NCBI GenBank assembly: GCA_017499595.2 | Contig: CM039000.1 | Coordinates: forward strand, 682,001 to 746,000 | DNA length: 64,000 nt | From: Psilocybe cubensis | Taxonomy: Eukaryota | Direction of reading: 5' to 3' | In this document: in pieces, positions 1 through 48,871 of the stretch | Layout of the letters: each line of letters starts with the position of its first letter | How positions within the stretch are numbered: position 1 is the first letter of the stretch | Position numbers and translations under genes: made by a program | Notes under the pieces: generated by a model | Told to the model about the DNA's origin: nothing | Databases searched by the model: none | Seen by the model: only the letters and a program-made list of their open reading frames with translations

Positions 1-39
1 TTGTCTAACGCCATACTGGTGCTGGGTGAGGAGTAGGCT

Positions 40-9920: not shown

Positions 9921-10584
9921 TGACTTGAACTTGTTGAGCCGCGTTGAAAAAGAGTGTGGTTGGCCTTGAAGAAAGTTTGGCGTAAACCGAGCGGGATGGT
10001 ACAGGAAGGAGTCGTACAAGTCGTTGGAGTGAAAAGTTGACAGTCTAGTTTATAAGCTAATCAGGAAGTGAGCGGATGGATGATACCCTGCGTTCATCAT
10101 GGAAGAAGGGGAGGCAGACCACCTAAATTGATAGATTACTATTTATGATGTGCAGATGTTGCTTTTTCTGGCGAGTTTTTTCTCGGTAAAATGTCGAGAT
10201 CTATTAATAGGCCAAAAAAAGAGCGTAGTCCATGCATTCCAACACCTTCAATTTATCGTACAAGCAGAGGTTAGCCCCGCCCGAAGGCCAGAATGGGGCG
10301 TAACCGGTCTATCTACAGGGAAATCACTCACCGGCGAAAATCTGTCAAGGTCACGGGACAAACATCCTACCACAACGACGGGTCATACGTGTTCTTCCCG
10401 GGTTGACAATAGGCCCGCCTACGTCGTGTTAGAGGGTTCAAGGGCCCCGCGCGGGTCCACTTCAGAGGTGTCCAACAATAATCGCTAGAGCATACCCCTG
10501 CGTCAAAGCTCCCCGGACGCCATTATGTTGTGTCAGAGCATAGCGGGGTGACTCGAGGGTGCTGAACGGAAATTAGGGTGAGTC

Positions 10585-11235
10585 CTGCTCGCCGGGTCAA
10601 AGCAACGATGTGTCGTGTTTGTCTAACGCCATACTGGTGCTGGGTGAGGAGTAGGCTGTATCCAGTTCGGCAGACAGCAATACATCTCCAGTTGGGTGGG
10701 TGCATAGCACTGCCTCCAAAGAGGCTGGACAACATTGGATGAAGGAGGAGATGCGCGTCTTGCCGGACGGCAATACATGGATAAGAGTTGGGTAGATCCT
10801 ACTCGCCGGAAGACGATATGCTGCATTGGGGCATATGTAGTCGAGACGAGCAAAGGGGAGAATTGAGCTCGCCGGACGGCGATACATAGCGTCAGCGCAT
10901 AGTGGGTTAAATCCTGCTTGCCGCAAGACGATGCATCGCGTTGGAGCATCCGCTGGTTGCACATAGAGTCAAAACAAGCAAAGAGGAGGGCCCAGCTCGC
11001 CGGACGGCAATACATAGCGTCAGAGCGTAGTTGGACAAGGAGTGTGGTGGATCCTGCTCGCCGGAAGACGACGCATTGCGTTGAAGCATCCGTTGGTCGC
11101 ACATGGAGTCGATACGAGTAAAGGGGAGGGTCCAGCTCGCCGGACAGCGATATATCGTGTCGGGGCATTATTTGGTGTCCTTGGGACAAGCAAAGCGGGT
11201 GGGTTTAGCTCGCCGGACGACGATATGTTGCCTCA
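10585..11235 (+). repeat. GCTCGCCGGA minisatellite, copy 2
   Basis: Same core motifs as 40-720. Confidence 0.9.
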
Positions 11236-14200
11236 GAGCATCTTTAGGCATGCTGGCACTAGCGAGTCGCGGGGAAGAAATACATTGCGTCGGAGTAATC
11301 TGGGTTATGGAAAACAGTTAAGCACATGTCTAGCACTCTGAACAGCAATACACTTACCAATACCATGGCCCTTTATTCTCAAGGCGAGTATCGATGCATA
11401 GCTTCAAGGCGAAACTGATACAAAGTCAGTACATGTTTTCAACACTATATCCAATGTCACATACCTCTTGGTTACCGCGCATTCCTTTACCAGCATTCGT
11501 CGGACACCCGAATCTCAAATTTGATTCTGCACACATTGTCAGTACTATATAAGTCTTTGAAGGTATAAAACTTACAAGGTTGAAACCAGATTACGTAGCC
11601 CGAGAGCCCAAGGTTGATACTAGAGCATGGCATAGGCAGAGTGCGATGCCAAGGAGGGTGCATGACGATGAGGAACGTCCACGACGAGGAGGGTGCACAA
11701 CAATGGGTGCATGACGAGGAGGGTACGCAAAAAGAAAGGTGTGCAACGAGGGAGGTAACGACGAGGACGGGTACACGTCGACGTACATCCAGCATTAGGG
11801 CATAATGCACGGCTGGGTTTCATGAAATTCCAGTCCCTCTTTATACTCTTTTTTTCCAAGTTTTCAAGGTCACGTTGTAATTTTGCTGGCACATCACCTC
11901 ATTTCTGTAGCTTCATCAATTAGACTAGTCTTCGCTTCACTCCAACTTCGTTTACGAAGTGTAAAATTTATTTTATGGAATGCCATAATTTGACTCTTAG
12001 GAGTCCGGGAATATGAGTGATTCCACTTCCCTGTTTGCTCTCCAACTTGAATTCCAAGGCAGAAGATCCTGCTACAAATGTCCGAAAACTGTCCACATCC
12101 ACAAATTACATTCCATGCTCGAGCACTGGAACAGCCGCTTTCCATCCTCGTAAACTCGTATCATTGTGCTAGACCCGGAGATCCACTTACGCGTAGAAGG
12201 CCGTAGTTTTGTTGAACGTTGCTTCACAACATTACGTGCATTTACATCCAACATAACGTCCTGTACCGCTGGCACAACACGCGCATAATGCACATTCAGC
12301 ATTCAGGTATCCTGAATGCGACGCGACACATCTCATCCCGAGCAAAAAGACCCTGAACGCGAGCACCCCTAAACGCGAATTGGTTTCGGATAACAAAGTC
12401 AGCTGAACTTGACGCGACGCGTCGGACGCGTGTCAGGGCAGAGCTGAGCTGTTTAATCTAATGACGCACATTTTCGTAACAAGCGCTGCTTCCTTTGAAA
12501 CCCGCTTTTGGAATAGTCGCGCTAGCGCCCGATCCGTGTCATCGCGATTCCGGATTCACGATCCTTGATTCAAGCCTAATTTTAAATCTGGGCAGACCAA
12601 CATCCAGGCCCACATTTACATAAATGCTTGCTGGAGAGCTTTCTACTACGTCTGGGGGTCATTTTTGATGTAGCGACTGTAATTGAAGGTGTTTTCATGG
12701 GAGTTAAATATAACTCTGGCTTGTTTTCAATGTAAATATAACTAAATCTCGAGGTATACTCTACAGACATTGTTTGTGGGCATACCGGTAAGTCAGGTTG
12801 CATCCGCATACTCGCTGACTATCTGTAGCACTGTATAGATTTGATATACGCGCTCAGATAAATATTCAGTACACTCTGCGGCCGAAAATCCGTCTCGGAA
12901 ACGGATACTTAAATAACTCGTGCAGGGGTTCCTTGAGCCCCTGTTCCGCTCTTGAACGCAAATTTCAAGTCTATGTCAGGATTTTAGCTCAATGAGGCTA
13001 GTGCCTCGGCTGCTCGGAGCCATCACAATGTTCAGCGGAGACTCTGAAGTTTCGGAGGATTGAGAAAAATACAGTGACGTGGCATTCGAATTCACGGTAG
13101 TTTGACCTCCATAAGGCGTCTGTGAGTTGAATAGTGTACCATAGAGTGTGAATAGAAGACAATATGATAAAATCCACTTGTAACTAACAGAATAAATTGA
13201 AATCTCTTGTGAATTTTCAAGTACTCGTCCTAAAATCGACTGCAAGCAATTTCATCCGCAGAATATAGATTACAACAAGCCCACAGGCAGGGTATGGTGT
13301 ACCAGTACTGATATATTACCTAGAATAGTCCAAAATCACTCACAGGAAGCAATGACATTTGTTTGACATATAAACCAATGACATTCTCCTCCTCCCCCGA
13401 TACGTCAATTTACGTCGTTTCAGTCGTTTCCATTCCATCCGTACCTTATTATAGATTAGCCTAGCACCCTTCGGCTCGCGAATAACGTTGTGAATCGGTC
13501 CTCTAGAGCCCAGAAGAACGTAGTTGATTGGATACAGTGCAGGCGGGTAATAACAACGTGGCATGCGTACCGCGGCCGTTTGCTGCATACTCGCCATTTG
13601 AGGCGGTTTGGCGGATGCGTATAGGTGTAGTAATGCGTGGTTGAAGAGATGATGCGCCGTGGTGCAAGGAAAAATCGACAATTTGGAGTTATTCACGTCG
13701 AGCCGTGAAATGGTGTAAATCGCGCATTCCCGCAGTTTGAAGAGGTGTAGGGGGGATTTTGTGAGCTGAGGGGTTGGAATAGTATGAAATTTAAGTGATG
13801 AGTAGTGAAATTTGAGTGCTGAAACCTTGAGAAAAGTTACACATTTCAAAAAATATTAAGCGCCCGAATAGACATCACACTGAATTGCGTGAATACAGCA
13901 ATTCCAAAGGCATTCCTCAGGTATCTCTGTATAGCAGCAGAACCCCTAATCACTCACATCGTGCATCCCATGTCAACAATCCCAAAAAATTCAACAAAAT
14001 TTTCAACTCACGTACATACCAACATCCTCCCCCTCCCCCGATTCGCGAATACAGCCCATTTCGAACGCCTCCCTTTCTTCCTGGTCTTTTCCGGCACTAA
14101 CGGGGACCTGCTCGGCTAGGCTAGGCTGCCGTCACCCGACCTAGAAGGACGGAAATGAAAGCAACCACTGACGGTCTTCAGCTGAATACACAAATGCAAT

Positions 14201-17200
14201 GATACGTACCGTACAATTCTGCGCGTTTTCCGCGTATTCCTGGCATTTAGGGTGTTTTAATACGTTACCTATGGTGTTATGCTGGTGTCTGGGCGTCGGA
14301 TCGAAGGTTGAAAAGTCGTAAGGTTTGTCTGGTTTCGTATTGCAAGTGTGCTCATGGAGCCGAATGCCCTCATTGTTGGAATAACGGGTTTACATGGTTT
14401 TTCAATGTCAGGTAGCCCCTGAGTGATATGATAGATGCTCTTCAGTATGTGAGTATGTCTGCGAGACTTGTTGAGCTCGGAGCACGATGGAAAAGGGTGT
14501 ACTGCGTATCAACTCCAAATAAGCGCCGAGAACGTGCATATCTACATACAGTGCAAAACAACACTACACACACCTCTAGAAAGATGACAGGGGTAATAAT
14601 ACCTCTCAGCTCTACCCCTCCAAACCATCCACCCCGCGGAACCATCGAAACAGCTGAACCAATCACATCCGAATCTGCACCTCCTCTCCCAAATCCGCAT
14701 TCCACCCCATTCCAACCGCATTTCTTTTCTTCCGGCTTCGGAATCTCACCACCTCGGCTACTCAGAGTCATAACGGCAGATCAGAAGAAGACAGCGGCGT
14801 TCAATTTGTCGCTGTGCAGAAGACGAGTTTTACGGGTGTTGACTACAGAGCAAGTGTCCGCACTCCGGGAGAGCTAGAATGTGTCGTTTGTGTGATTATG
14901 GGTAGAATACGTATGGGTGGTGAATTGAATGTACGTACTGGTTTCCCCGAGTCGTGAAGCATTTGAAAATTGTGGAAGATTTGGTGCTAAAGTTTTGTTA
15001 TTCGTCGTTCAGGCAATTTTGAGGAAATGGAGTGTATCATGAATCCAGTACTTGTATTGTCCTGGTTTGCGTCTTCAAGCATTGTAAATCTTTATTCTTT
15101 ATTGAGTTGAATATAATTCTCTCTTGAGCGCAATGCATCGACATCAGCTCAAACAAACAAATGTACGAAATCATATTTCACAATACAACACACCCACCCA
15201 AAGTTTCACTCACTGCAAACGGAGAAACCACATCCAATCTACAATCTCGACACACACGGACGATCGGACCACAACTCGCGTAACCCAAATCCGAACCCGC
15301 ACTAACAAGCGACACCGAAAAAAAAAAAGAATCTGTATATTTCATTATTCGGTCTACTTACGACATGTAACAGGCGTACTAGTAACAGCCCCACGCGGGT
15401 ATATAAAGACCACGCACCTTGCTGGCCTTTCTTCATCCCCTCACCGCCTACTCTCCTCTGCCTCTTCAGCTCTCCTCTTCTTTTCTCTTCGGGCTTGGAT
15501 GGCGCGTTCTGGCAGACGGTGAGCCTTCTAGTTCGTTCTCGACGGCGCTGACGTTGTGCACTATATAGGCATTGGTGAGTGATATTGACACGACGCCGAG
15601 GCGATTCTGACGCGTTTCTCATAGGCCCGCGCACCACGATGAAAACACCCCTCCTAACCTTGCCCGTAAAGGTGAGTTGCACCCACCCAACGATGCGCTG
15701 CTACTCACTTTGCTTCTCGCTGCACAGAAAAGTAAGGATTTCCGTGAGTCGGGGCCCCTATGACACGCAGAGCGCTGACAACGCACCTTGACAGAATGGC
15801 CTCTCGATCCATCCACCTGACGGCGTGGGCTGGTTGATACCGTGAAGGTTGCTGGAAAGGTCCTAGACGGTGTGGACACGATAACGACGGTAAGTAGTAG
15901 GGCAATAACTAACAGATGCTTTACTGACCCACCTTGAAATTAGATTCCCCGCCCGCCTCTGTCACTGCAAGTTGGATCCATTGGACTATGAGGGGACATA
16001 ACATGCCCCCCAAATCCCGCTCCACGGTGAGTGTCGAGAGCGACTGAAAGTGCTTGCTGATTAATCCGACGCTTGCTGGGGTAGACGACCCTACGCGGGT
16101 ATAAAGACCACGGGTGTTGCTGGCATTCTTCATCTTTGGGCTTGGATGACGTGTTCGGGCAGACGGTGAGCTTTGTAGTCGACAGCGCTGACGTTGAGCA
16201 CACCAGAGCCACCGTTTGAGGCGACGGTGAGTAACATGCACACGATGCCAATGTGATTCTGACGCATTCCTCGTAGAAGTGCTATAGGTGCGTTGGTCAC
16301 CGCAGAACGCTGACAACATACCTCGACAGAACACCACCTAGCCTGTCCCGCTCTGCCCAGACCAGCCAACACCGCTTCTCGCTACACAGACAAGGCATTG
16401 CCTACAGAATTTCTGTGAGTCGGGGCCCCTGATACGTAGAAAGCTGACGAAATACCTTGACAGAATGTCTTCTTGATCCATCCCGCTCCTCTCCCTGGCA
16501 TAACGATTGACGGCGTGAAAAAAAAGAAGTTTAGATGCGTAACGAACTGCAGAGTACTGACCGTGCCGATTACTCCATCCCACACTCTCCTTGTATCCTT
16601 TCCCTCTCCGCATTGCCCCATACCACCAATGACCGCGCGCAGCGACACTGTCTTGACGGCCGTCCAGAATGCATGCAGCTGAGGGGAGAGAGGTAAGCAC
16701 AATCCCTCGCGGTCAAAAGAATTGTCAACTTACTGACCGGTGATACAAGCTGTTGAAAATTGACATGGCCTGCCCACACCATCGATGACCTGCGCTGTGT
16801 GCTGGATAGCGCGCAGTGACGCTGTCTTGACGGCCGCCCAGAATGCACACAGCTGAGGGAAAGCGGTAAGCACGGTCCCTTGAGGTTGAAAGAGTTGTCT
16901 ACTGACCTGTGACACAAATCGACCCCCTAGGTCCATGGATAGCGAGCAAAGACTCTTGACCGCAAGGTAAGCCGTCGATATAATAACCCAACCAACCTAT
17001 TGACGCACCAATTGACCTCTAGTCGGGCACGACTGTATGCGCGAGCCTTGTTCTTTGAGGCGCAAGGAACCTTGGGTGTTGGTTAAAGGTATGCCCGCTC
17101 AGTTTGTCTGCGAAACTGTCTTGAATGGCGGGCTGAATGCTGCATGCACTGTGGCTTGACGGGGGTGGAAAGACTCTGCAAGGGTGCTGTCACTGGCTTG

Positions 17201-18644
17201 GGCATCCATCGCTTGTCCCATGACGGCGGCGTGTCGACGTTGGGATCAACGTTGTTTAGTGATGAGTCTGCGTGCTGCCACATTCCCCTATACGGACATG
17301 CGGCCTCAAGCTGAGATCCAACAACTGAGAAAGTCAAATATAAAAAGACGGACAATAACGTACCTCAGTTTCCCCTAGATGCTCACAAATATCAAGGTAG
17401 GCGAAGATCGGGGTGTGTGAGTGAGAAGACGAAGCGGGTAATATAGGTGCTGTGGGGATGAGGCGGAGAGTGCAACATGTGTCGCCTCCTTCATCTTCCA
17501 ACGGAAAGGACTTGAGCGCAAGGTGCACGGCGTGACGGTGGTCAAGGAGCTCATCAAAAACGAAGGCCGACTGCCTTCTTCAAGGGGCTGACGCCAAAGG
17601 TATGCCAGTGTCCTACTTAGTTGCAATTCGCCGCATGCACCGCATCGACACAACGTCTAGTGATTACTTGCTAAAACAGGTATACATACATCTCGTAGTG
17701 TAGAGTATGATTCAGGAGCACATGCACAGCTGGTGGGGATAGATAGGGTAGGTAGGTTACTATAGGTGTAGTAGTAGTATGTCGGCTGTACACACATGAA
17801 AAAAGGTATAAGTGTTAACGTGAATGTGAATCTGGGAAAACAAGGTCATAAAGATGGGAGAAAATTAAATATAGGAAATGTGCGGTCGGGTGTGCGTGCA
17901 CACTATGCAGCAGAGGAGAACACAACAGGCAGAAGGTAGAGGTGGATGATAACGAGGTGAACATGCCGAAGAAGAAGAAAAAGAGGAGAACAATGCAGAG
18001 GGGGGAAAATCGAGAACGAAATCGAAGGAAGACGAAACGAGAATCAAATCAGAACGGCTCGAAATCCAAAATCCAGTTCCGATTCCAATAGTTTTCTACA
18101 ACAACTCTACTCTACAAAGATCTTCTACTTTTTACAAATTCGTCTTCGACACGTCAACGCGTCGTCGACGATCACCCGCGTACCGCGCCACCTGCTCTGC
18201 AGTGGTCACTCGTCCTCGCACGCACGCGTGCAAGTGCACAAATCAAGCACGACCGGTGAGTCTTTCTACTACATCAAAACAAAAAAAAGCAGAAACGGGG
18301 GAAAGAAATAGAAAACAAAAGGAGAAAGCGGGAACTGGACTGAACGATATACACGAGGGGCTTGGTGGTGGTGGTGGTAGCAACAGACAGCATCGAGCGC
18401 CAGGCGGTGTAGGGATGGACAGAAGGGATCCTCCGAGCATGCATGCACGCGCGTGTGCTCTCCTCCCTCTCATCCTCCGAGGTGTGATGTTGGCCCGCAA
18501 GAAGTGAATAGGTGCGTATGTGGGTGGAAATCAACTCCGGGTATCGGTTACTGAACTAGATGGGAAGGGAGGGAAGGGGGGGAGGAGACTTGGACAGACA
18601 TGTATGGCATGCAGGGAGGCACGACGGAAGGGGAGGGGGGGCGC

Positions 18645-20443
18645 TCAGAGCGAGAACCACTGCCTCTTCGCGTAAAGCCTCCTGTGCGCGGTGGTTGCAG
18701 CTACTTTCACCTGTGGCTCGGGCTCGGGCGATTTCTTGACGAGCACGCCCTCCTCCGGGGAGGGAAGCAAAGCGCGTCTCCTGCGCCTGCTCGAGCGCTT
18801 CTGGCAAGACGGGGCGGGGTTGCCGTTGTCGTTGCTGCTGGACACAGAAGCAGCGGATGCAGAAGAAGCGGAGGCAGAGGCAGAGGCAGAGGAAGAAGCG
18901 CCTGCGGCGAGATTGGCGGGGGCGGGGCTTGCGCCGGTGTTTCCACCTGAGTTTGCGTTGTTCGAGCCTGAGCCGTTGTTTGAGTTGGATTTGTTCGAGC
19001 CCGAGTTGTTGTTGTTGGAGCCAGAATTGTTGGAACCGGAGTTGCCTGCGGGAGCACTCGGAGCGCCAGCAAAGATATCGTTCTGCGCGCCTGAAAAGAA
19101 GAATCGCAAAAAAACGCCAGGTCAGCCACTTACAATCCGAAATAAAAAAAAATAATCATTGAAACCAACCATCAGCGAAACCCAGCTTGGCATTGTATGC
19201 TGGAGACTTGAAGCTGCCTGAAAGGTCGTATCCACTGACAGCGATGTTGTTGCCCTCGTTCTGGTTCCAGTAAATCATCTGCTTCGAGCCCTTGACGCAG
19301 GCACCTGGGTTGCCCTCGCACCACACGGGTGGCTGTGGGGGTGCAATGGGCGTAGTGCTCTTTGCGCCGGTGACTTTGCACTTGAATGGCTGGTGGTACA
19401 TGTTCGGCTGGCCGCAGCCGTTCGGGACCCATCCCCACTGTGGAAAGAGTTAGACGAAAAATGTGAAGTTTGAATAGAAGTCGGCTTACAGCGCAGATGC
19501 AGCCTCCTTCAGGGCAGGCGGGCAAGTTGGCCGGGACATCGTAGCTGATAACGCGCTTCCAGGGTGTGCTGTGGGGGATTTTATTGATAAGCGTCATTGA
19601 TTTATTTGCAAGGAATGAAAACCACTCACTTATAACGAACAGTGAACACTGCAAGGTTCTGGGGAGTTACTGCCTTGATGTCAGACTAGAAAGTATTTGC
19701 AAAGTGAGCGCTAGATATGATTTTGAACGAGAGTTGGGGACTTGCGTTGTACGAGATTGCGAATGCGGTTCCGGCCGCCATAGACTGATTCTGGGCATGC
19801 ACTGCACAAAAATGAATCAGCAAAAACGCCAAGAAACGAGGGCCGCTCACTGTTTGGGGACGTGATGCATGAAGGGACATTCTGTGAGGCACAGTGGGTT
19901 AATTAATCAGTTGCTAGGAATATGGGAAAGACACGCACATAGTCCTCGGGGTATGTCGCACCGTCTGGCCATTCTGAGGTGTCGCGCCCGTTGTACGCCA
20001 GCGTGGTCTTTGCGCGGTTGGAGGCGATCTCGACGGTGAAGCTTCCACCAGCAGGACTGAAGTCGGGGTTTAGACGACGGAAATCAAAAATACAGGTGTG
20101 TTGGGACTCACAGCTCGAGGAAGTCCCCGTCTGCAGGAGGATATAGGTCACACTAGGTTAACAATTGCGTTGTTGATATGATGGACTGCAGAGTGTTGTT
20201 TAATGAGATGAACATAGCACAACGGCAAAACACGTACACCACCAATCCTTAAAGTTGAGCTGGACAATCGCGTAGGAATTCAAGTCTTGCGCAGCTTGCG
20301 GACCCTATAGAAAGAATGTAGATTCTTCAGCGGTTCTGAACATTTTGAAATGAGGACTACATTCCTTTGTGGAAAGCTGCAAGATGGGCGTTGGCGCCGC
20401 TTAGCCACAAGGCCGCTGTGAGAAGGGTTGCAGCTCGAAACAT
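18645..20443 (-). pseudogene. AA14 LPMO pseudogene, copy 2
   Basis: Same lesions as copy 1; premature TAG at 20357-20359. Confidence 0.88.
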
Positions 20444-21107
20444 TGACTTGAACTTGTTGAGCCGCGTTGAAAAAGAGTGTGGTTGGCCTTGAAGAAAGTT
20501 TGGCGTAAACCGAGCGGGATGGTACAGGAAGGAGTCGTACAAGTCGTTGGAGTGAAAAGTTGACAGTCTAGTTTATAAGCTAATCAGGAAGTGAGCGGAT
20601 GGATGATACCCTGCGTTCATCATGGAAGAAGGGGAGGCAGACCACCTAAATTGATAGATTACTATTTATGATGTGCAGATGTTGCTTTTTCTGGCGAGTT
20701 TTTTCTCGGTAAAATGTCGAGATCTATTAATAGGCCAAAAAAAGAGCGTAGTCCATGCATTCCAACACCTTCAATTTATCGTACAAGCAGAGGTTAGCCC
20801 CGCCCGAAGGCCAGAATGGGGCGTAACCGGTCTATCTACAGGGAAATCACTCACCGGCGAAAATCTGTCAAGGTCACGGGACAAACATCCTACCACAACG
20901 ACGGGTCATACGTGTTCTTCCCGGGTTGACAATAGGCCCGCCTACGTCGTGTTAGAGGGTTCAAGGGCCCCGCGCGGGTCCACTTCAGAGGTGTCCAACA
21001 ATAATCGCTAGAGCATACCCCTGCGTCAAAGCTCCCCGGACGCCATTATGTTGTGTCAGAGCATAGCGGGGTGACTCGAGGGTGCTGAACGGAAATTAGG
21101 GTGAGTC

Positions 21108-21758
21108 CTGCTCGCCGGGTCAAAGCAACGATGTGTCGTGTTTGTCTAACGCCATACTGGTGCTGGGTGAGGAGTAGGCTGTATCCAGTTCGGCAGACAG
21201 CAATACATCTCCAGTTGGGTGGGTGCATAGCACTGCCTCCAAAGAGGCTGGACAACATTGGATGAAGGAGGAGATGCGCGTCTTGCCGGACGGCAATACA
21301 TGGATAAGAGTTGGGTAGATCCTACTCGCCGGAAGACGATATGCTGCATTGGGGCATATGTAGTCGAGACGAGCAAAGGGGAGAATTGAGCTCGCCGGAC
21401 GGCGATACATAGCGTCAGCGCATAGTGGGTTAAATCCTGCTTGCCGCAAGACGATGCATCGCGTTGGAGCATCCGCTGGTTGCACATAGAGTCAAAACAA
21501 GCAAAGAGGAGGGCCCAGCTCGCCGGACGGCAATACATAGCGTCAGAGCGTAGTTGGACAAGGAGTGTGGTGGATCCTGCTCGCCGGAAGACGACGCATT
21601 GCGTTGAAGCATCCGTTGGTCGCACATGGAGTCGATACGAGTAAAGGGGAGGGTCCAGCTCGCCGGACAGCGATATATCGTGTCGGGGCATTATTTGGTG
21701 TCCTTGGGACAAGCAAAGCGGGTGGGTTTAGCTCGCCGGACGACGATATGTTGCCTCA
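21108..21758 (+). repeat. GCTCGCCGGA minisatellite, copy 3
   Basis: Matches copy 2 at +10523. Confidence 0.9.
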
Positions 21759-24700
21759 GAGCATCTTTAGGCATGCTGGCACTAGCGAGTCGCGGGGAAG
21801 AAATACATTGCGTCGGAGTAATCTGGGTTATGGAAAACAGTTAAGCACATGTCTAGCACTCTGAACAGCAATACACTTACCAATACCATGGCCCTTTATT
21901 CTCAAGGCGAGTATCGATGCATAGCTTCAAGGCGAAACTGATACAAAGTCAGTACATGTTTTCAACACTATATCCAATGTCACATACCTCTTGGTTACCG
22001 CGCATTCCTTTACCAGCATTCGTCGGACACCCGAATCTCAAATTTGATTCTGCACACATTGTCAGTACTATATAAGTCTTTGAAGGTATAAAACTTACAA
22101 GGTTGAAACCAGATTACGTAGCCCGAGAGCCCAAGGTTGATACTAGAGCATGGCATAGGCAGAGTGCGATGCCAAGGAGGGTGCATGACGATGAGGAACG
22201 TCCACGACGAGGAGGGTGCACAACAATGGGTGCATGACGAGGAGGGTACGCAAAAAGAAAGGTGTGCAACGAGGGAGGTAACGACGAGGACGGGTACACG
22301 TCGACGTACATCCAGCATTAGGGCATAATGCACGGCTGGGTTTCATGAAATTCCAGTCCCTCTTTATACTCTTTTTTTCCAAGTTTTCAAGGTCACGTTG
22401 TAATTTTGCTGGCACATCACCTCATTTCTGTAGCTTCATCAATTAGACTAGTCTTCGCTTCACTCCAACTTCGTTTACGAAGTGTAAAATTTATTTTATG
22501 GAATGCCATAATTTGACTCTTAGGAGTCCGGGAATATGAGTGATTCCACTTCCCTGTTTGCTCTCCAACTTGAATTCCAAGGCAGAAGATCCTGCTACAA
22601 ATGTCCGAAAACTGTCCACATCCACAAATTACATTCCATGCTCGAGCACTGGAACAGCCGCTTTCCATCCTCGTAAACTCGTATCATTGTGCTAGACCCG
22701 GAGATCCACTTACGCGTAGAAGGCCGTAGTTTTGTTGAACGTTGCTTCACAACATTACGTGCATTTACATCCAACATAACGTCCTGTACCGCTGGCACAA
22801 CACGCGCATAATGCACATTCAGCATTCAGGTATCCTGAATGCGACGCGACACATCTCATCCCGAGCAAAAAGACCCTGAACGCGAGCACCCCTAAACGCG
22901 AATTGGTTTCGGATAACAAAGTCAGCTGAACTTGACGCGACGCGTCGGACGCGTGTCAGGGCAGAGCTGAGCTGTTTAATCTAATGACGCACATTTTCGT
23001 AACAAGCGCTGCTTCCTTTGAAACCCGCTTTTGGAATAGTCGCGCTAGCGCCCGATCCGTGTCATCGCGATTCCGGATTCACGATCCTTGATTCAAGCCT
23101 AATTTTAAATCTGGGCAGACCAACATCCAGGCCCACATTTACATAAATGCTTGCTGGAGAGCTTTCTACTACGTCTGGGGGTCATTTTTGATGTAGCGAC
23201 TGTAATTGAAGGTGTTTTCATGGGAGTTAAATATAACTCTGGCTTGTTTTCAATGTAAATATAACTAAATCTCGAGGTATACTCTACAGACATTGTTTGT
23301 GGGCATACCGGTAAGTCAGGTTGCATCCGCATACTCGCTGACTATCTGTAGCACTGTATAGATTTGATATACGCGCTCAGATAAATATTCAGTACACTCT
23401 GCGGCCGAAAATCCGTCTCGGAAACGGATACTTAAATAACTCGTGCAGGGGTTCCTTGAGCCCCTGTTCCGCTCTTGAACGCAAATTTCAAGTCTATGTC
23501 AGGATTTTAGCTCAATGAGGCTAGTGCCTCGGCTGCTCGGAGCCATCACAATGTTCAGCGGAGACTCTGAAGTTTCGGAGGATTGAGAAAAATACAGTGA
23601 CGTGGCATTCGAATTCACGGTAGTTTGACCTCCATAAGGCGTCTGTGAGTTGAATAGTGTACCATAGAGTGTGAATAGAAGACAATATGATAAAATCCAC
23701 TTGTAACTAACAGAATAAATTGAAATCTCTTGTGAATTTTCAAGTACTCGTCCTAAAATCGACTGCAAGCAATTTCATCCGCAGAATATAGATTACAACA
23801 AGCCCACAGGCAGGGTATGGTGTACCAGTACTGATATATTACCTAGAATAGTCCAAAATCACTCACAGGAAGCAATGACATTTGTTTGACATATAAACCA
23901 ATGACATTCTCCTCCTCCCCCGATACGTCAATTTACGTCGTTTCAGTCGTTTCCATTCCATCCGTACCTTATTATAGATTAGCCTAGCACCCTTCGGCTC
24001 GCGAATAACGTTGTGAATCGGTCCTCTAGAGCCCAGAAGAACGTAGTTGATTGGATACAGTGCAGGCGGGTAATAACAACGTGGCATGCGTACCGCGGCC
24101 GTTTGCTGCATACTCGCCATTTGAGGCGGTTTGGCGGATGCGTATAGGTGTAGTAATGCGTGGTTGAAGAGATGATGCGCCGTGGTGCAAGGAAAAATCG
24201 ACAATTTGGAGTTATTCACGTCGAGCCGTGAAATGGTGTAAATCGCGCATTCCCGCAGTTTGAAGAGGTGTAGGGGGGATTTTGTGAGCTGAGGGGTTGG
24301 AATAGTATGAAATTTAAGTGATGAGTAGTGAAATTTGAGTGCTGAAACCTTGAGAAAAGTTACACATTTCAAAAAATATTAAGCGCCCGAATAGACATCA
24401 CACTGAATTGCGTGAATACAGCAATTCCAAAGGCATTCCTCAGGTATCTCTGTATAGCAGCAGAACCCCTAATCACTCACATCGTGCATCCCATGTCAAC
24501 AATCCCAAAAAATTCAACAAAATTTTCAACTCACGTACATACCAACATCCTCCCCCTCCCCCGATTCGCGAATACAGCCCATTTCGAACGCCTCCCTTTC
24601 TTCCTGGTCTTTTCCGGCACTAACGGGGACCTGCTCGGCTAGGCTAGGCTGCCGTCACCCGACCTAGAAGGACGGAAATGAAAGCAACCACTGACGGTCT

Positions 24701-27700
24701 TCAGCTGAATACACAAATGCAATGATACGTACCGTACAATTCTGCGCGTTTTCCGCGTATTCCTGGCATTTAGGGTGTTTTAATACGTTACCTATGGTGT
24801 TATGCTGGTGTCTGGGCGTCGGATCGAAGGTTGAAAAGTCGTAAGGTTTGTCTGGTTTCGTATTGCAAGTGTGCTCATGGAGCCGAATGCCCTCATTGTT
24901 GGAATAACGGGTTTACATGGTTTTTCAATGTCAGGTAGCCCCTGAGTGATATGATAGATGCTCTTCAGTATGTGAGTATGTCTGCGAGACTTGTTGAGCT
25001 CGGAGCACGATGGAAAAGGGTGTACTGCGTATCAACTCCAAATAAGCGCCGAGAACGTGCATATCTACATACAGTGCAAAACAACACTACACACACCTCT
25101 AGAAAGATGACAGGGGTAATAATACCTCTCAGCTCTACCCCTCCAAACCATCCACCCCGCGGAACCATCGAAACAGCTGAACCAATCACATCCGAATCTG
25201 CACCTCCTCTCCCAAATCCGCATTCCACCCCATTCCAACCGCATTTCTTTTCTTCCGGCTTCGGAATCTCACCACCTCGGCTACTCAGAGTCATAACGGC
25301 AGATCAGAAGAAGACAGCGGCGTTCAATTTGTCGCTGTGCAGAAGACGAGTTTTACGGGTGTTGACTACAGAGCAAGTGTCCGCACTCCGGGAGAGCTAG
25401 AATGTGTCGTTTGTGTGATTATGGGTAGAATACGTATGGGTGGTGAATTGAATGTACGTACTGGTTTCCCCGAGTCGTGAAGCATTTGAAAATTGTGGAA
25501 GATTTGGTGCTAAAGTTTTGTTATTCGTCGTTCAGGCAATTTTGAGGAAATGGAGTGTATCATGAATCCAGTACTTGTATTGTCCTGGTTTGCGTCTTCA
25601 AGCATTGTAAATCTTTATTCTTTATTGAGTTGAATATAATTCTCTCTTGAGCGCAATGCATCGACATCAGCTCAAACAAACAAATGTACGAAATCATATT
25701 TCACAATACAACACACCCACCCAAAGTTTCACTCACTGCAAACGGAGAAACCACATCCAATCTACAATCTCGACACACACGGACGATCGGACCACAACTC
25801 GCGTAACCCAAATCCGAACCCGCACTAACAAGCGACACCGAAAAAAAAAAAGAATCTGTATATTTCATTATTCGGTCTACTTACGACATGTAACAGGCGT
25901 ACTAGTAACAGCCCCACGCGGGTATATAAAGACCACGCACCTTGCTGGCCTTTCTTCATCCCCTCACCGCCTACTCTCCTCTGCCTCTTCAGCTCTCCTC
26001 TTCTTTTCTCTTCGGGCTTGGATGGCGCGTTCTGGCAGACGGTGAGCCTTCTAGTTCGTTCTCGACGGCGCTGACGTTGTGCACTATATAGGCATTGGTG
26101 AGTGATATTGACACGACGCCGAGGCGATTCTGACGCGTTTCTCATAGGCCCGCGCACCACGATGAAAACACCCCTCCTAACCTTGCCCGTAAAGGTGAGT
26201 TGCACCCACCCAACGATGCGCTGCTACTCACTTTGCTTCTCGCTGCACAGAAAAGTAAGGATTTCCGTGAGTCGGGGCCCCTATGACACGCAGAGCGCTG
26301 ACAACGCACCTTGACAGAATGGCCTCTCGATCCATCCACCTGACGGCGTGGGCTGGTTGATACCGTGAAGGTTGCTGGAAAGGTCCTAGACGGTGTGGAC
26401 ACGATAACGACGGTAAGTAGTAGGGCAATAACTAACAGATGCTTTACTGACCCACCTTGAAATTAGATTCCCCGCCCGCCTCTGTCACTGCAAGTTGGAT
26501 CCATTGGACTATGAGGGGACATAACATGCCCCCCAAATCCCGCTCCACGGTGAGTGTCGAGAGCGACTGAAAGTGCTTGCTGATTAATCCGACGCTTGCT
26601 GGGGTAGACGACCCTACGCGGGTATAAAGACCACGGGTGTTGCTGGCATTCTTCATCTTTGGGCTTGGATGACGTGTTCGGGCAGACGGTGAGCTTTGTA
26701 GTCGACAGCGCTGACGTTGAGCACACCAGAGCCACCGTTTGAGGCGACGGTGAGTAACATGCACACGATGCCAATGTGATTCTGACGCATTCCTCGTAGA
26801 AGTGCTATAGGTGCGTTGGTCACCGCAGAACGCTGACAACATACCTCGACAGAACACCACCTAGCCTGTCCCGCTCTGCCCAGACCAGCCAACACCGCTT
26901 CTCGCTACACAGACAAGGCATTGCCTACAGAATTTCTGTGAGTCGGGGCCCCTGATACGTAGAAAGCTGACGAAATACCTTGACAGAATGTCTTCTTGAT
27001 CCATCCCGCTCCTCTCCCTGGCATAACGATTGACGGCGTGAAAAAAAAGAAGTTTAGATGCGTAACGAACTGCAGAGTACTGACCGTGCCGATTACTCCA
27101 TCCCACACTCTCCTTGTATCCTTTCCCTCTCCGCATTGCCCCATACCACCAATGACCGCGCGCAGCGACACTGTCTTGACGGCCGTCCAGAATGCATGCA
27201 GCTGAGGGGAGAGAGGTAAGCACAATCCCTCGCGGTCAAAAGAATTGTCAACTTACTGACCGGTGATACAAGCTGTTGAAAATTGACATGGCCTGCCCAC
27301 ACCATCGATGACCTGCGCTGTGTGCTGGATAGCGCGCAGTGACGCTGTCTTGACGGCCGCCCAGAATGCACACAGCTGAGGGAAAGCGGTAAGCACGGTC
27401 CCTTGAGGTTGAAAGAGTTGTCTACTGACCTGTGACACAAATCGACCCCCTAGGTCCATGGATAGCGAGCAAAGACTCTTGACCGCAAGGTAAGCCGTCG
27501 ATATAATAACCCAACCAACCTATTGACGCACCAATTGACCTCTAGTCGGGCACGACTGTATGCGCGAGCCTTGTTCTTTGAGGCGCAAGGAACCTTGGGT
27601 GTTGGTTAAAGGTATGCCCGCTCAGTTTGTCTGCGAAACTGTCTTGAATGGCGGGCTGAATGCTGCATGCACTGTGGCTTGACGGGGGTGGAAAGACTCT

Positions 27701-29167
27701 GCAAGGGTGCTGTCACTGGCTTGGGCATCCATCGCTTGTCCCATGACGGCGGCGTGTCGACGTTGGGATCAACGTTGTTTAGTGATGAGTCTGCGTGCTG
27801 CCACATTCCCCTATACGGACATGCGGCCTCAAGCTGAGATCCAACAACTGAGAAAGTCAAATATAAAAAGACGGACAATAACGTACCTCAGTTTCCCCTA
27901 GATGCTCACAAATATCAAGGTAGGCGAAGATCGGGGTGTGTGAGTGAGAAGACGAAGCGGGTAATATAGGTGCTGTGGGGATGAGGCGGAGAGTGCAACA
28001 TGTGTCGCCTCCTTCATCTTCCAACGGAAAGGACTTGAGCGCAAGGTGCACGGCGTGACGGTGGTCAAGGAGCTCATCAAAAACGAAGGCCGACTGCCTT
28101 CTTCAAGGGGCTGACGCCAAAGGTATGCCAGTGTCCTACTTAGTTGCAATTCGCCGCATGCACCGCATCGACACAACGTCTAGTGATTACTTGCTAAAAC
28201 AGGTATACATACATCTCGTAGTGTAGAGTATGATTCAGGAGCACATGCACAGCTGGTGGGGATAGATAGGGTAGGTAGGTTACTATAGGTGTAGTAGTAG
28301 TATGTCGGCTGTACACACATGAAAAAAGGTATAAGTGTTAACGTGAATGTGAATCTGGGAAAACAAGGTCATAAAGATGGGAGAAAATTAAATATAGGAA
28401 ATGTGCGGTCGGGTGTGCGTGCACACTATGCAGCAGAGGAGAACACAACAGGCAGAAGGTAGAGGTGGATGATAACGAGGTGAACATGCCGAAGAAGAAG
28501 AAAAAGAGGAGAACAATGCAGAGGGGGGAAAATCGAGAACGAAATCGAAGGAAGACGAAACGAGAATCAAATCAGAACGGCTCGAAATCCAAAATCCAGT
28601 TCCGATTCCAATAGTTTTCTACAACAACTCTACTCTACAAAGATCTTCTACTTTTTACAAATTCGTCTTCGACACGTCAACGCGTCGTCGACGATCACCC
28701 GCGTACCGCGCCACCTGCTCTGCAGTGGTCACTCGTCCTCGCACGCACGCGTGCAAGTGCACAAATCAAGCACGACCGGTGAGTCTTTCTACTACATCAA
28801 AACAAAAAAAAGCAGAAACGGGGGAAAGAAATAGAAAACAAAAGGAGAAAGCGGGAACTGGACTGAACGATATACACGAGGGGCTTGGTGGTGGTGGTGG
28901 TAGCAACAGACAGCATCGAGCGCCAGGCGGTGTAGGGATGGACAGAAGGGATCCTCCGAGCATGCATGCACGCGCGTGTGCTCTCCTCCCTCTCATCCTC
29001 CGAGGTGTGATGTTGGCCCGCAAGAAGTGAATAGGTGCGTATGTGGGTGGAAATCAACTCCGGGTATCGGTTACTGAACTAGATGGGAAGGGAGGGAAGG
29101 GGGGGAGGAGACTTGGACAGACATGTATGGCATGCAGGGAGGCACGACGGAAGGGGAGGGGGGGCGC

Positions 29168-31066
29168 TCAGAGCGAGAACCACTGCCTCTTCGCGTAAAG
29201 CCTCCTGTGCGCGGTGGTTGCAGCTACTTTCACCTGTGGCTCGGGCTCGGGCGATTTCTTGACGAGCACGCCCTCCTCCGGGGAGGGAAGCAAAGCGCGT
29301 CTCCTGCGCCTGCTCGAGCGCTTCTGGCAAGACGGGGCGGGGTTGCCGTTGTCGTTGCTGCTGGACACAGAAGCAGCGGATGCAGAAGAAGCGGAGGCAG
29401 AGGCAGAGGCAGAGGAAGAAGCGCCTGCGGCGAGATTGGCGGGGGCGGGGCTTGCGCCGGTGTTTCCACCTGAGTTTGCGTTGTTCGAGCCTGAGCCGTT
29501 GTTTGAGTTGGATTTGTTCGAGCCCGAGTTGTTGTTGTTGGAGCCAGAATTGTTGGAACCGGAGTTGCCTGCGGGAGCACTCGGAGCGCCAGCAAAGATA
29601 TCGTTCTGCGCGCCTGAAAAGAAGAATCGCAAAAAAACGCCAGGTCAGCCACTTACAATCCGAAATAAAAAAAAATAATCATTGAAACCAACCATCAGCG
29701 AAACCCAGCTTGGCATTGTATGCTGGAGACTTGAAGCTGCCTGAAAGGTCGTATCCACTGACAGCGATGTTGTTGCCCTCGTTCTGGTTCCAGTAAATCA
29801 TCTGCTTCGAGCCCTTGACGCAGGCACCTGGGTTGCCCTCGCACCACACGGGTGGCTGTGGGGGTGCAATGGGCGTAGTGCTCTTTGCGCCGGTGACTTT
29901 GCACTTGAATGGCTGGTGGTACATGTTCGGCTGGCCGCAGCCGTTCGGGACCCATCCCCACTGTGGAAAGAGTTAGACGAAAAATGTGAAGTTTGAATAG
30001 AAGTCGGCTTACAGCGCAGATGCAGCCTCCTTCAGGGCAGGCGGGCAAGTTGGCCGGGACATCGTAGCTGATAACGCGCTTCCAGGGTGTGCTGTGGGGG
30101 ATTTTATTGATAAGCGTCATTGATTTATTTGCAAGGAATGAAAACCACTCACTTATAACGAACAGTGAACACTGCAAGGTTCTGGGGAGTTACTGCCTTG
30201 ATGTCAGACTAGAAAGTATTTGCAAAGTGAGCGCTAGATATGATTTTGAACGAGAGTTGGGGACTTACGTTGTACGAGATTGCGAATGCGGTTCCGGCCG
30301 CCATAGATTGATTCTGGGCATGCACTGCACAAAAATGAATCAGCAAAAACGCCAAGAAACGAGGGGCAATAACGAGGGCCGCTCACTGTTTGGGGACGTG
30401 ATGCATGAAGGGACATTCTGTGAGGCACAGTGGGTTAATTAATCAGTTGCTAGGAATATGGGAAAGACACGCACATAGTCCTCGGGGTATGTCGCACCGT
30501 CTGGCCATTCTGAGGTGTCGCGCCCGTTGTACGCCAGTGTGGTCTTTGCGCGGTTGGAGGCGATCTCGACGGTGAAGCTTCCACCAGCAGGACTGAAGTC
30601 GGGGTTTAGACGACGGAAATTAAAAATACAGGTGTGTTGGGACTCACAGCTCGAGGAAGTCCCCGTCTGCAGGAGGATATAGGTCACACTAAGATTGTTT
30701 CGCAAGTTTCAGAGAATACTAGGTTAACAATTGCACCAAAACACACGTTGTTGATATGATGGACTGCAGAGTGTTGTTTAATGAGATGAACATAGCACAA
30801 CGGCAAGGCACGTACACCACCAATCCTTAAAGTTGAGCTGGTATAGAGGTGAGACAATCGCATAGGAATTCAAATCTTGCGCAGCTTGCGGACCCTATAG
30901 AAAGAATTTTGAATTGGAATGTAGATTCTTCAGCGCTTCTGAACATCTTAAGAAGAGGACTGCAACGCACATTCAAACAGTACATTCCTTTGTGGAAAGC
31001 TGCAAGATGGGCGTTGGCGCCGCTTAGCCACAAGGCCGCTGTGAGAAGGGTTGCAGCTCGAAACAT
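29168..31066 (-). CDS. Secreted AA14-family lytic polysaccharide monooxygenase with a low-complexity S/N/G/A C-terminal tail (multi-exon, intact)
   Basis: Manual splicing gives signal peptide [19 protein letters not shown] then mature His1 [14 protein letters not shown]...[44 protein letters not shown]...[18 protein letters not shown]...[40 protein letters not shown]...[13 protein letters not shown]...[16 protein letters not shown]. These match AA14 motifs as I recall them (WWFH, PxCPxGGCxCAW, GAQNDIF; His1, second His, Tyr). All introns are GT-AG. Confidence 0.88.
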
Positions 31067-33001
31067 TGACTTCAACTTATTGAGCCGCGTTGAAAAAGAG
31101 TGTGGTTGGCCTTAAAGAAAGAGAGTGTGTGGTTTGGCGTAAACCGAGCGGGATAGTACAAGCGTAGGTACAGGAAGAGGGAAGGAGTCGTACAAAAGGG
31201 AGTCTGTCCAAGTCGTTGGAGTGAAAAGTTGACAGTCTAGTTTATAAACCAACAGTTCCTGAAGCTAATCAGGAAATGAGCGGATGGATGATACCCTGCG
31301 TTCATCATGGATTCATCTTGACCCCTAGAAATTTTTGGCTCAATCGAGTCGATTTCTCGGCAAAAAAACTGGTTTCCGGGCTCAGCTCTCCGAGCGGCAA
31401 GGCTCCATTCTACCCAGAAATCCTCCATATCAGGGTATTTTCCGTGTCTTTGCTCGGCTTGAGCATATCGACAGGGACGCTGGTGAATTTGTGCGCATCA
31501 AGGATGGATGGGGTTAACGCCACGATAGTGGTTTTTTGTCGTTCTTCTAGCCGCAGACTCGGTGGTGTAAACCACGCTCGTTATCTTTCATCCAGTTTCC
31601 GTCGAATGACCTTGAAAATTGAACATCCAAAGGAAATTCTACAAACGATCATGTAGCATCGAGGGTGGAAAGTTGGTGCATGAGATAACCTGTCGGATGA
31701 GTCGTCCTGACAACAGTTACTTCCCGTGGGAAATTTGTAGTCATTCCGGCCACGTTCCTGACTCTAAATGAAGGAGCATTTGAAAAACGCTTGGGAGGCC
31801 AGATCGAGACGTCATAAAATTAACATGAGAGTTCATTCCAGTAAGATTCGAGAGACCATTCTTCAGTGCTTATAACGTATGTTAGAGTAATCCATTGCAG
31901 AGAATAAAGGCACCCTCCATTCTTCTCATCTAATAGTTGCTATAGCGCCACGCCACTGCTTCCACTCGCAAAAAAAAACGTCCACATGGACTTGTTCATT
32001 TGCGGGTTCAGAGTGCCGAAAGCAGTGAGGAATTTGGATAAAAGATAGCACAGTGAAGATAATAACTGCTATTTCGGCATTTGGGTTGTTACTATTAGGT
32101 CTTACGTGTAAGCGCGACGCATGGTCGTGCTAAACCTGCTTCTAGCAATGTCCAACGGAACCATGCACTCCGATTTCTTCCTTGTTATCTTCAAATTTGC
32201 TTCAATTTGTGAGCAAGAAATACACATTCATAAAAAACCTACAATTGCATGAAACGTATATCCAAGATATGTCTGGCCAACTCAAAATTGTAGGCTTACT
32301 CTGATTTTATAACTATCGTCTAAGAATCTTTTTGAATCAAAAAAGAAGCGCTAATTGATTCAGACGCGCGCTAATAGACGCGTGCAACGTTTCCAATCGC
32401 GTCGAACGTGGGGAATTCATTTTTAATAAAGGTCGAAACTAGACTACACAACACGAACGGTCATCATTTTGCAATTTAGATGATATTGTGCCTATATCTT
32501 AAAAGATACAGCTCATCTATAGACTGTCAGTCGTGGTCGCCTGAGCGGAGCAAGGCGGTCCAAATTGGAGGTTTGGAAGAAGTTATTTTAGAAACTATCT
32601 TCCTGATTTAGAACAGGTTTCTGAGGTCTGATTTTCCGAAGTATTTCTTACGTTCCATGTCCGCCAAAAATAATGGAAAGATATTGTTGAGGCTGTAATA
32701 CAGTCGTTTCTTGTGCGTCGTTCAGTATTTACTGGCGCAGTACGTCAGTACCGGAGTGTTTACTTCAACCTTCTACCTTTCTCAGGCAATCCACCCACTT
32801 GTAAAGTCATGTTGAACCATGCCACGTACAATCGTCAAATAATAAATTATACTAGTGTCAAATTTGGTGAAAGGCCTATATCCGGTTGGTAGGACTGGTG
32901 TTGAAAAGGTAAGTATATATGGCATGGGGACGATCAAGATAATATTAATGAGTTCATAAATAAAGTCGTAAGCAAATCTACCAACTGGAAGACTGGCATT
33001 T

Positions 33002-48514: not shown

Positions 48515-48871
48515 AGAGGTACTACAAGTATTTATTGCAGGACTTGGTCCGAAAATCCTGCTCAATTCCTGTCTCTGTTATTTGTCCCTCAGGAAGGGTT
48601 TACGGACATGAACCAAAATGTTGAGGGTAAAGTGCAGTGTTGTAATTATACCACCGTTGAGTTACATACTAGAGATCAATCAGTCGTTATTAACAAGATT
48701 CAAGTCAACAGACTGCTAGGCTTTCGTTCTCTTCTTTTCTCAGTTTGTTCGGGCCACACCCGGAATTTACCGGTAGATACTGTTCCGTGTTACGTACACT
48801 GACAGAAGAGCTTGTACTTCAGCCGCATTAGCACCACCAACTATTATCAGTACCGCTCTCCTCTCGACCCA

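What the first reader, a model, noticed from the sequence alone, without database searches (positions are those of the whole stretch)
30358..31263. Eleven clustered 7-30-bp deletions, many at microhomologies, inactivate the 5' end of the duplicated AA14 LPMO copies
Seen: relative to intact copy 3, copies 1 and 2 lack 13 bp (AACGAGGG repeat, ~30358), 30 bp (ACTA, 30691-30720), 12 bp (30735-30746, intron-3 donor), 12 bp (30842-30853, SPLY), 13 bp (GAAT, 30908-30920), 20 bp (30961-30980, YCLN plus intron-1 donor) and five upstream tracts of 11, 12, 7 (GGAAG), 16 (CAA) and 16 bp. The sum, 162 bp, equals the offset change (10523 to 10685), so there is no net insertion. Polarity is fixed because only copy 3 keeps the ORF and splice sites. 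The rest of the gene shows only SNPs and small repeat indels. Inference: about one deletion per 80 bp, confined to the promoter and 5' exons next to the array junction, is unlike uniform neutral decay or RIP-type C>T mutation. It suggests a localised deletion process such as repeated microhomology-mediated end joining or template switching, possibly an undescribed route for silencing duplicated genes.
Basis: partly seen in the sequence, partly recalled or inferred. Interest (0 to 1): 0.8.

Follow-up and report, generated by a model that had tools for sequence, protein, structure and literature searches.

The report
Deletion halo beside gene-duplicating element
The small deletions that broke the extra copies of this mushroom enzyme gene are real, and they are one case of a repeated pattern: an unclassified non-coding insertion sits between kilobase-long duplicates of host DNA, and the host DNA right next to it keeps losing short pieces.

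Summary
The deletions are real, but the context is larger. The three copies are the right end of a 14-unit tandem array, built as host segment B (AA14 gene), then 13 x [7.4-kb non-coding element E + B]. Thirteen inner copies carry 14 distinct 8-30-bp deletions in mosaic, stepwise sets, beside only 21 substitution sites. The terminal copy is intact; an RNA contig of another run confirms its introns, and three other DNA runs lack the array. E is a family: at 8 of 8 simple loci it lies between 2.0-4.2-kb direct duplicates of host DNA. Within 600 bp of the joints, 38 of 40 mid-size indels are losses on the E side, about nine times the rate per substitution in other duplicates. They hit coding DNA as well as promoters. 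Microhomology is only modestly enriched (27 of 38 have 0-1 bp). So this is a junction-proximal repair signature, not RIP and not promoter-directed silencing. E fits no tested transposon class. Support from reads of the source strain is untested.

The parts
29168..31066 (-). Intact AA14-family LPMO gene of terminal unit k14: 11 exons, 428 aa
   Evidence: Exon map and open frame; nine joints of the X10 contig match it; Pfam PF22810 E 2e-27; PDB 5no7 E 1e-7
30358..31261 (.). Reference tract in k14 from which the 13 inner copies have lost 14 distinct 8-30-bp pieces (4-10 per copy, 57-162 bp)
19744..20626 (.).
9221..10103 (.).
28035..31311 (.). Host segment B in k14 (fragment of the neighbouring carrier-like gene, intergenic DNA, AA14 gene). 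The native left copy is C3:564944-569116; inner copies and k14 lack 837 bp of it, most also about 200 bp
   Evidence: 'carrier-like' is my reading of the sequence, no family hit
20627..28034 (.). Element E in k14, 7.4 kb: no long frame, no terminal repeats; intron-like units face outward from a conserved central block
   Evidence: no depth over 27201-28001 and next to none over 26934-27200 in X14, X15, X1
20686..20839 (.). Conserved 155-bp piece near the start of E with a nearly invariant hairpin; family marker, 42 matches in the genome; no Rfam match; no covariation
10104..20626 (.). Array unit k13 (E + B, 10,523 bp)
1..10103 (.). Most of array unit k12; the array runs on left of the window to about C3:564,944 (window = C3:682001-746000)
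20626..20627 (.). B/E joint of type J1 (k1, k6-k13); also at 10103/10104. k2-k5 have joint J2, which runs further into the right flank and holds a templated patch
29330..29373 (+). Template of the 44-bp patch found in joint J2, about 2 kb from the joint
   Evidence: 42 of 44 identical
31311..31312 (.). Right end of the array; single-copy native flank begins

Best explanation
SHOWN: the AA14 copies are cargo of an array A-B-(E-B)13-C. E is a 7-8-kb non-coding element family that lies between kilobase direct duplicates of its host site. The ends of B that touch E have lost many 7-30-bp pieces, densest within 200 bp and fading by about 600 bp; the ends of B that keep their native flank have not. 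The joints also hold 18-68-bp patches copied from nearby DNA, and larger skips. In the AA14 array the losses came in several rounds and were shuffled between units by recombination. INFERRED: E is put in at a broken DNA end, and copying of the host segment restarts from the E end. The first few hundred bases are copied by an unstable primer end that falls off and lands a little further on (small deletions) or elsewhere nearby (patches, large skips). Restarting 2-4 kb behind the break makes the duplication. The duplication lets unequal exchange grow the array, and later breaks at the same joints add deletions. Selection keeps one terminal copy whole, which makes the losses visible there. Gene inactivation is a by-product.
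For: Structure; empty single-copy site in 3 of 3 DNA runs laid. Polarity: 49 of 61 indels of 7-60 bp over whole B, 40 of 52 without AA14; 38 of 40 within 600 bp, same direction at 8 of 8 loci, sign test P 0.008. Gradient: 16, 9, 7, 6, 0 losses at 0-100, 100-200, 200-400, 400-600, 600-800 bp. Rate: 40 per 166 substitutions against 30 per 1165 (Fisher P 2e-17); at C7, 3 deletions in the first 111 bp with 0 substitutions in the first 60% of B. Templated patches at joints of AA14, C13c, C9, C13b, G5K and C7. Microhomology above chance: summed 48 against 30, P 0.012; 3 bp or more in 8 of 38 against 3.0. Stepwise: deletions private to k1 sit between changes shared by 12 copies; two overlapping, non-nested deletions at 31190 and 31193.
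Against: Yeast repair-synthesis deletions average 56 bp with 6 bp of microhomology (PMC12891019, passages); these have median 13 bp and mostly 0-1 bp. One insertion event cannot explain lineage-specific rounds; the repeat breakage is assumed. No enzyme for E was found. Farther than 600 bp there is a second E-side group (11 losses) and 11 losses from the other copy, mostly in G5K introns. One duplicate not touching E (C3 inverted piece beside the G5K array) shows the same density, 7 per 22, so the cause may be any rearrangement joint. Native/E-side status is checked against other strains only at AA14. The background pairs were hand-picked from fetched regions and include coding paralogs.
Confidence: 0.5

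Rival explanations
1. Pairing shadow: deletions come from end joining of ordinary breaks (meiotic or replicative). A break within a few hundred bases of E has homology on one side only when the partner chromosome lacks E, so recombinational repair fails and ends are trimmed and joined.
For: 27 of 38 deletions have 0-1 bp microhomology; stepwise gain; E is absent in 3 of 3 runs, so often unpaired; both E ends are affected; the two richest ends (AA14, G5K) are gene-upstream regions; inside E the AA14 units also show a peak near the far joint. Precedent for deletion-biased repair on the human X chromosome: PMC7615360 (passages).
Against: E bodies are also unpaired yet show only 0.011-0.096 mid-size indels per substitution. 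Patches copied from up to 3 kb away need DNA synthesis. It does not explain the duplication itself.
Confidence: 0.25
2. E acts on its flanks: outward transcription from E, or a nuclease guided or recruited by its conserved hairpin piece, damages the adjacent few hundred bases again and again.
For: Intron-like units face outward on both halves: 52 on + against 7 on - in the far three eighths, 39 on - against 4 on + in the first two eighths, 10 elements (summed by me). The hairpin piece is nearly invariant across 13 copies whose bodies are 65-80% alike.
Against: No TnpB/Fanzor domain match in the genome (PF07282); no long frame in E; no Rfam match; sequences beyond the hairpin piece look like local patches, not a guide of fixed length; deletions are spread, not at one site.
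Confidence: 0.1
3. Neutral decay plus edge effect: inner copies decay at the normal rate, recombination with the working copy refreshes the middle, and only the edges show change.
For: k13 and k14 are identical for 8.5 kb and differ only near the edge; inner copies are mosaics. This explains why the window shows differences only at the 5' end.
Against: It predicts about 4 mid-size indels for 166 substitutions, in both directions; 40 are seen, 38 on one side. C7 has deletions with no substitutions.
Confidence: 0.06
4. One reading: a promoter/5'-directed deletion route that silences duplicated genes.
For: At AA14 and G5K the clusters are upstream and 5' of the duplicated gene; all 13 inner AA14 copies are broken.
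Against: Clusters follow the joint, not the gene: coding DNA near a 3' end at C7, coding DNA at C13. The cluster at G5K lies mostly outside the coding part. Most AA14 deletions are intronic or upstream.
Confidence: 0.04
5. Assembly artefact of a long repeat array.
For: No reads of the source strain were laid; k4 and k5 are identical over 10,704 bp; the copy number could be wrong.
Against: The same breakpoints recur in up to 13 copies with linked substitutions; the polarised pattern recurs at two-copy loci on three other contigs and at the C7 array.
Confidence: 0.05

Closest known systems
Dualen-4b_cRei LINE insertions with very long target-site duplications in Chlamydomonas (PMC9977147, passages)
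   Same: An insertion flanked on both sides by a long direct duplicate of the host site (median 900 bp there).
   Different: E has no RT or endonuclease frame and no A-tail at either joint; duplicates are 2.0-4.2 kb at 8 of 8 simple loci; the passages seen report no halo of small deletions.
Element-linked tandem gene arrays: EPSPS with a 16-kb mobile element in Kochia (PMC6808082, passages); ToxB-HLE in Pyrenophora (10.1101/2025.11.13.688278, abstract and section 20); Ac reversed-ends duplications (PMC3744419, search listing only)
   Same: An element between tandem copies of a host gene; growth by unequal crossing over.
   Different: Here one family did it at 8 or more loci, one element between two B copies is enough as a starting state, and the terminal units are host DNA, not element. 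E lacks Helitron ends and terminal inverted repeats.
Repair-synthesis deletions in yeast gene conversion (PMC12891019, abstract and passages); MMBIR/FoSTeS junctions (recalled)
   Same: Deletions far outnumber duplications; template hops near a break.
   Different: Yeast events average 56 bp with 6-bp microhomology; these are 13 bp (median), mostly 0-1 bp, and several per copy.
Raised mutation rate beside transposon sites in grasses (PMC5023962, abstract and section list)
   Same: Mutations crowd near an element and are ascribed to break repair.
   Different: There mainly after excision and over 3 kb; here E is present, the zone is about 600 bp, and the excess is mid-size deletions.
Coprina endonuclease-deficient Penelope-like elements (PMC8557442, PMC13159263, passages)
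   Same: Blocks of E occur inside subtelomeric arrays on C8 and C15 that also hold RT frames of Penelope-like type (motifs read by eye, recalled), hammerhead motifs and telomere repeats. Such elements keep introns and use ready DNA ends.
   Different: E itself has no RT, no hammerhead core and no telomere repeat, and the 155-bp piece is absent from those arrays. The link is co-location only.
RIP and MIP of duplicated fungal DNA (recalled)
   Same: Duplicated genes end up dead.
   Different: No C-to-T excess; the lesions are deletions confined to joints.

Membership tests
AA14 LPMO (k14 gene) | AA14 family sequence match | tested here: met
   PF22810 96.7 bits on exon 10, cut-off 27; weak hit on exon 1; PDB 5no7
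AA14 LPMO (k14 gene) | Signal peptide followed by His1; histidine brace | tested here: inconclusive
   His20 follows a hydrophobic leader in the translation; the other brace residues were not aligned
AA14 LPMO (k14 gene) | Copper-dependent oxidative activity | not testable with these tools
   needs an assay
RIP | Dense C-to-T transitions in duplicates | tested here: not met
   4 of 21 sites G:C to A:T, 12 A:T to G:C; TpA/ApT 0.5-0.9 over the array
MMEJ deletions | Most deletions bounded by 2 or more bp of microhomology | tested here: not met
   6 of 14 at AA14; 11 of 38 pooled; enrichment over null is real but small
Helitron (for E) | 5'-TC and CTRR-3' ends, no target duplication | tested here: not met
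   0 of 5 elements end in CTRR in either orientation, 2 of 5 begin TC; kilobase duplicates flank E
Helitron (for E) | RepHel frame or an autonomous partner sharing ends | tested here: inconclusive
   No such frame in the E copies examined; two C8 loci with the 155-bp piece not examined
Non-LTR retrotransposon, Dualen-like (for E) | Variable, long target-site duplication | tested here: met
   2.0-4.2 kb at 8 of 8 simple loci
Non-LTR retrotransposon, Dualen-like (for E) | RT and endonuclease frames; A-rich or simple-repeat tail at a joint | tested here: not met
   No frame over 350 codons (its E_C1a row includes a nested insert); no tail in the joint sequences
Coprina Penelope-like element (for E) | RT frame, hammerhead motif beside reverse telomere repeats | tested here: not met
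   Found in the C8 and C15 units but in 0 of 10 E sequences
TIR or LTR element (for E) | Terminal inverted or direct repeats | tested here: not met
   Longest shared word between the 400-bp ends is 8-10 bp in 5 of 5
Fanzor/TnpB element | TnpB-like nuclease gene in cis or trans | tested here: not met
   PF07282 search of G000: 0 matches; introns could hide one
HDV-like ribozyme (for the 155-bp piece) | Nested double pseudoknot | tested here: not met
   My descriptor gave 4 hits in 10 elements, none at the piece; shuffles gave 1-3. Fungal variants with a loop E (PMC5640933, passages) could be missed

The most novel reading that the evidence does not exclude
E is an undescribed class of non-coding mobile element, moved in trans (possibly by the telomere-type Coprina reverse transcriptase acting at broken forks), whose normal insertion product is a 2-4-kb duplication of host DNA. 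It thus amplifies whole genes into arrays, while its joints erode the neighbouring few hundred bases round after round.
Probability: 0.3. Interest if true: 0.85.

Novelty: new variant of a known kind. Interest (0 to 1): 0.63.

Why it matters
It gives a route to gene duplication in a mushroom genome that has acted at many loci (an LPMO, a glutamate-kinase-like gene, a radical-SAM gene and others) and is polymorphic between strains at least at one. Each locus keeps the ancestral sequence beside the eroded copy, so the genome holds a set of natural before-and-after pairs for asking how break repair mutates DNA next to an insertion. The halo is directional and measurable (about 600 bp, median 13-bp losses), so it can be tested in crosses. 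It also warns that 5' decay of a duplicate can be a joint effect and not silencing.

Tried and rejected
rDNA or known RNA family: no Rfam match in the window or at the E start. Strand-biased A-to-G change: seen at AA14, not significant over 8 loci (21 to 11, P 0.16; 15 to 11 without AA14), dropped. Guide-RNA reading of the 155-bp piece: no TnpB match; following sequence is of variable length and partly local patchwork. Structure of the piece: fold z -0.5 and -0.7; 0 of 25 pairs covary. Protein coding in E: tblastx gave no consistent frame. Relatives of the piece outside this genome: 0 in two metagenome scans and one viral scan. HDV-like descriptor: at shuffle level. Run search: no RNA holder listed on record; X10 was labelled a guess but shows spliced joints. 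Reads of a strain with the array: none among the 3 DNA runs laid (4 of 15 listed runs were laid). Complex arrays on C11 and C6 were left out of the counts because their native ends are unclear; where looked at, they agree (16-bp loss, and 9, 20, 11-bp losses on the E side). The 6-bp and smaller indels and those over 60 bp were left out of all counts.
Full report
1. Observation. The window is G000:C3:682001-746000, a 46.6-Mb genome in 21 contigs. A neighbouring-contig protein is 100% identical to a Psilocybe cubensis entry, which names the species. Pairwise alignment confirms ten gaps totalling 162 bp and 18 substitutions between window copies 2 and 3, all in 30267-31276, after 8.5 kb of identity. 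Copy 3 has an 11-exon, 428-codon frame of the AA14 family. Nine joints of an RNA-type contig from another run match the exon map, and that contig runs 615 bases past the ATG to 31681 (three further joints were not shown).

2. The array. The gene region matches 14 places in tandem on C3, 567-713 kb. Units are 10.5-11.3 kb; k2 has a further 4.15-kb insert. The layout is A-B-(E-B)13-C. B is host DNA, whole only when the left part of k1 and the right part of k14 are taken together. E is 7.4 kb of foreign DNA. In two raw-read runs and one contig set, E has no depth over 27201-28001 and the gene has the same depth as the flank, so these strains have the empty site. X1 carries none of the deletions. 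No reads of the source strain were available.

3. All 13 inner copies. There are 14 distinct deletions of 8-30 bp and 21 substitution sites in 30267-31311; copies carry 4-10 deletions. The sets are mosaic. k2 lacks only the start codon, an intron piece and two upstream pieces. k1 has two private deletions lying among changes shared by 12 copies. Two overlapping deletions at 31190 and 31193 are not nested. So the losses arose in several rounds and were then shuffled. Summed microhomology is 28 against 10.3 expected (P 0.0004), or P 0.013 without the 8-bp case; 8 of 14 have 0-1 bp. Along the unit, mid-size indels per 600 bp are 0-2 over most of E, 2-4 near its far joint, 0-1 in mid B, and 3 and 9 next to the start joint (k2-k13 against k14).

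4. E is a family. A 155-bp piece near the E start has 42 matches in the genome (40 of 49 candidates scored). At 8 of 8 loci with a simple layout, E lies between direct duplicates of host DNA: 4.2 kb (AA14), 3.6 (C3, glutamate-kinase-like gene, my reading plus a PUA hit), 2.15, 3.4 and 3.8 (C13), 2.0 (C1), 2.4 (C9), 3.2 (C7). Three more loci are complex arrays (C11, C6 twice). Two loci on C6 show only the piece, with no duplicate in the 20 kb fetched. Two on C8 were not examined. E copies share collinear blocks at 65-83% identity, with no long frame, terminal repeat, Helitron end, tail, hammerhead or Rfam match. Intron-like units face outward from the centre. Blocks of E also lie in subtelomeric arrays with Penelope-like RT frames; this is co-location only.

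5. The test. If the deletions belong to E joints, then at each locus the copy whose end touches E should be the one that lacks sequence. Comparing first and last B at the 8 loci, 49 of 61 indels of 7-60 bp go that way (40 of 52 without AA14). Within 600 bp of the ends, 38 of 40 do, at 8 of 8 loci, on both ends of E (21 at the start side, 17 at the far side). Density falls with distance. The ratio to substitutions is 0.24, against 0.026 in 14 other duplicate pairs from the fetched regions and 0.011-0.096 in four E-body pairs. The middle of B gives 21 per 219, 15 of them at the G5K locus. At C7 the E-side losses break a 391-codon frame near its end, with no substitutions nearby. One background pair, an inverted piece beside the G5K array, has 7 per 22 and is kept in the background count; it suggests that other joints may behave alike.

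6. Joints. Between E and B lie short pieces copied from nearby DNA: 44 bp from the AA14 last exon (k2-k5), 31 bp from mid B (C13c), 21+21 bp from B (C9), 28 bp from 250 bp beyond B (C13b), 20+68+23+18 bp in order from the flanks (C7), 39+18 bp (G5K), and 33 bp from 1.2 kb left of B at the AA14 far joint. The small deletions look like the low end of a series of skips that grow toward the joint.

7. Mechanism. The patchwork and one-way losses point to unstable DNA synthesis begun at the joint (0.5). The low microhomology and repeated rounds point to end joining where only one side has a template (0.25). The two may act in turn. Neutral decay with an edge effect explains why the window shows change only at the 5' end, but not the rate. 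Promoter-directed silencing is not supported.

8. What is known. Long target duplications are reported for a Dualen LINE (PMC9977147, passages), element-linked gene arrays for Kochia and Pyrenophora (PMC6808082, passages; 10.1101/2025.11.13.688278, abstract and one section), and repair-linked deletions in yeast, grasses and humans (PMC12891019, PMC5023962, PMC7615360; passages or abstract). Eight literature searches (listings read) showed no report of this element or of a polarised deletion halo beside such insertions. The library lacks most subscription journals, and no supplements were opened; repeat libraries in genome-paper supplements could list E. The scan's notes had nothing at this place or for the marker sequence.

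9. Verdict. Observation confirmed, interpretation partly supported. Limits: one assembly, no source reads, one locus checked against other strains, hand-picked background, no enzyme identified.

Noticed in passing
L012-L013, C3:569330-573486 (in unit k2): A 4.15-kb insert with terminal inverted repeats sits at the end of the 155-bp piece; weak hAT-dimer and DUF659 hits; 7-bp duplication plus 5 extra bases at its right end.
   Followed up: partly
window 35199-36542: A 1,344-bp near-perfect palindrome whose halves also match each other directly (88%); AT-rich with raised TpA.
   Followed up: no
window 48567-50852 and 50954-53188: Older tandem duplication, 87% identical; used only as background (4 mid-size indels per 201 substitutions).
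   Followed up: partly
L030-L034, C3:847705-884930: Second E array, four host copies with a glutamate-kinase-like gene and the 5' part of a PRPP synthetase gene (Pribosyltran_N). Exons are alike while introns differ strongly between copies. An inverted duplication of 831-846 kb follows it at 885-897 kb.
   Followed up: partly
L093-L100 (C8:3238-3315 kb) and L041-L048 (C15:30-110 kb): Subtelomeric arrays of Penelope-like RT frames of up to 1,187 codons with hammerhead motifs and telomere repeats; units of 14-20 kb and 29.5 kb that include E-like blocks.
   Followed up: partly
L045:5546-8563 (+): 1,006-codon frame in the C15 unit with no Pfam match.
   Followed up: no
L059-L066, L107-L108 (C6:220-305 kb): Array of about 10-kb units, at least seven with a divergent 63-bp form of the E piece; its ends were not found.
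   Followed up: partly
window 33011-34302: Matches C3:558840-560107 at 73%, a paralog just left of the array; spliced joints occur here in X10.
   Followed up: no
window 26400-26900: X14 and X15 reads pile up with many loose ends, so related E-like sequence exists elsewhere in those strains although this insertion is absent.
   Followed up: no
window 30862-31276: Isolated changes in k1 within 600 bp of the joint include 6 A-to-G and no T-to-C, C-to-T or G-to-A on the + strand; the bias does not hold at other loci.
   Followed up: yes
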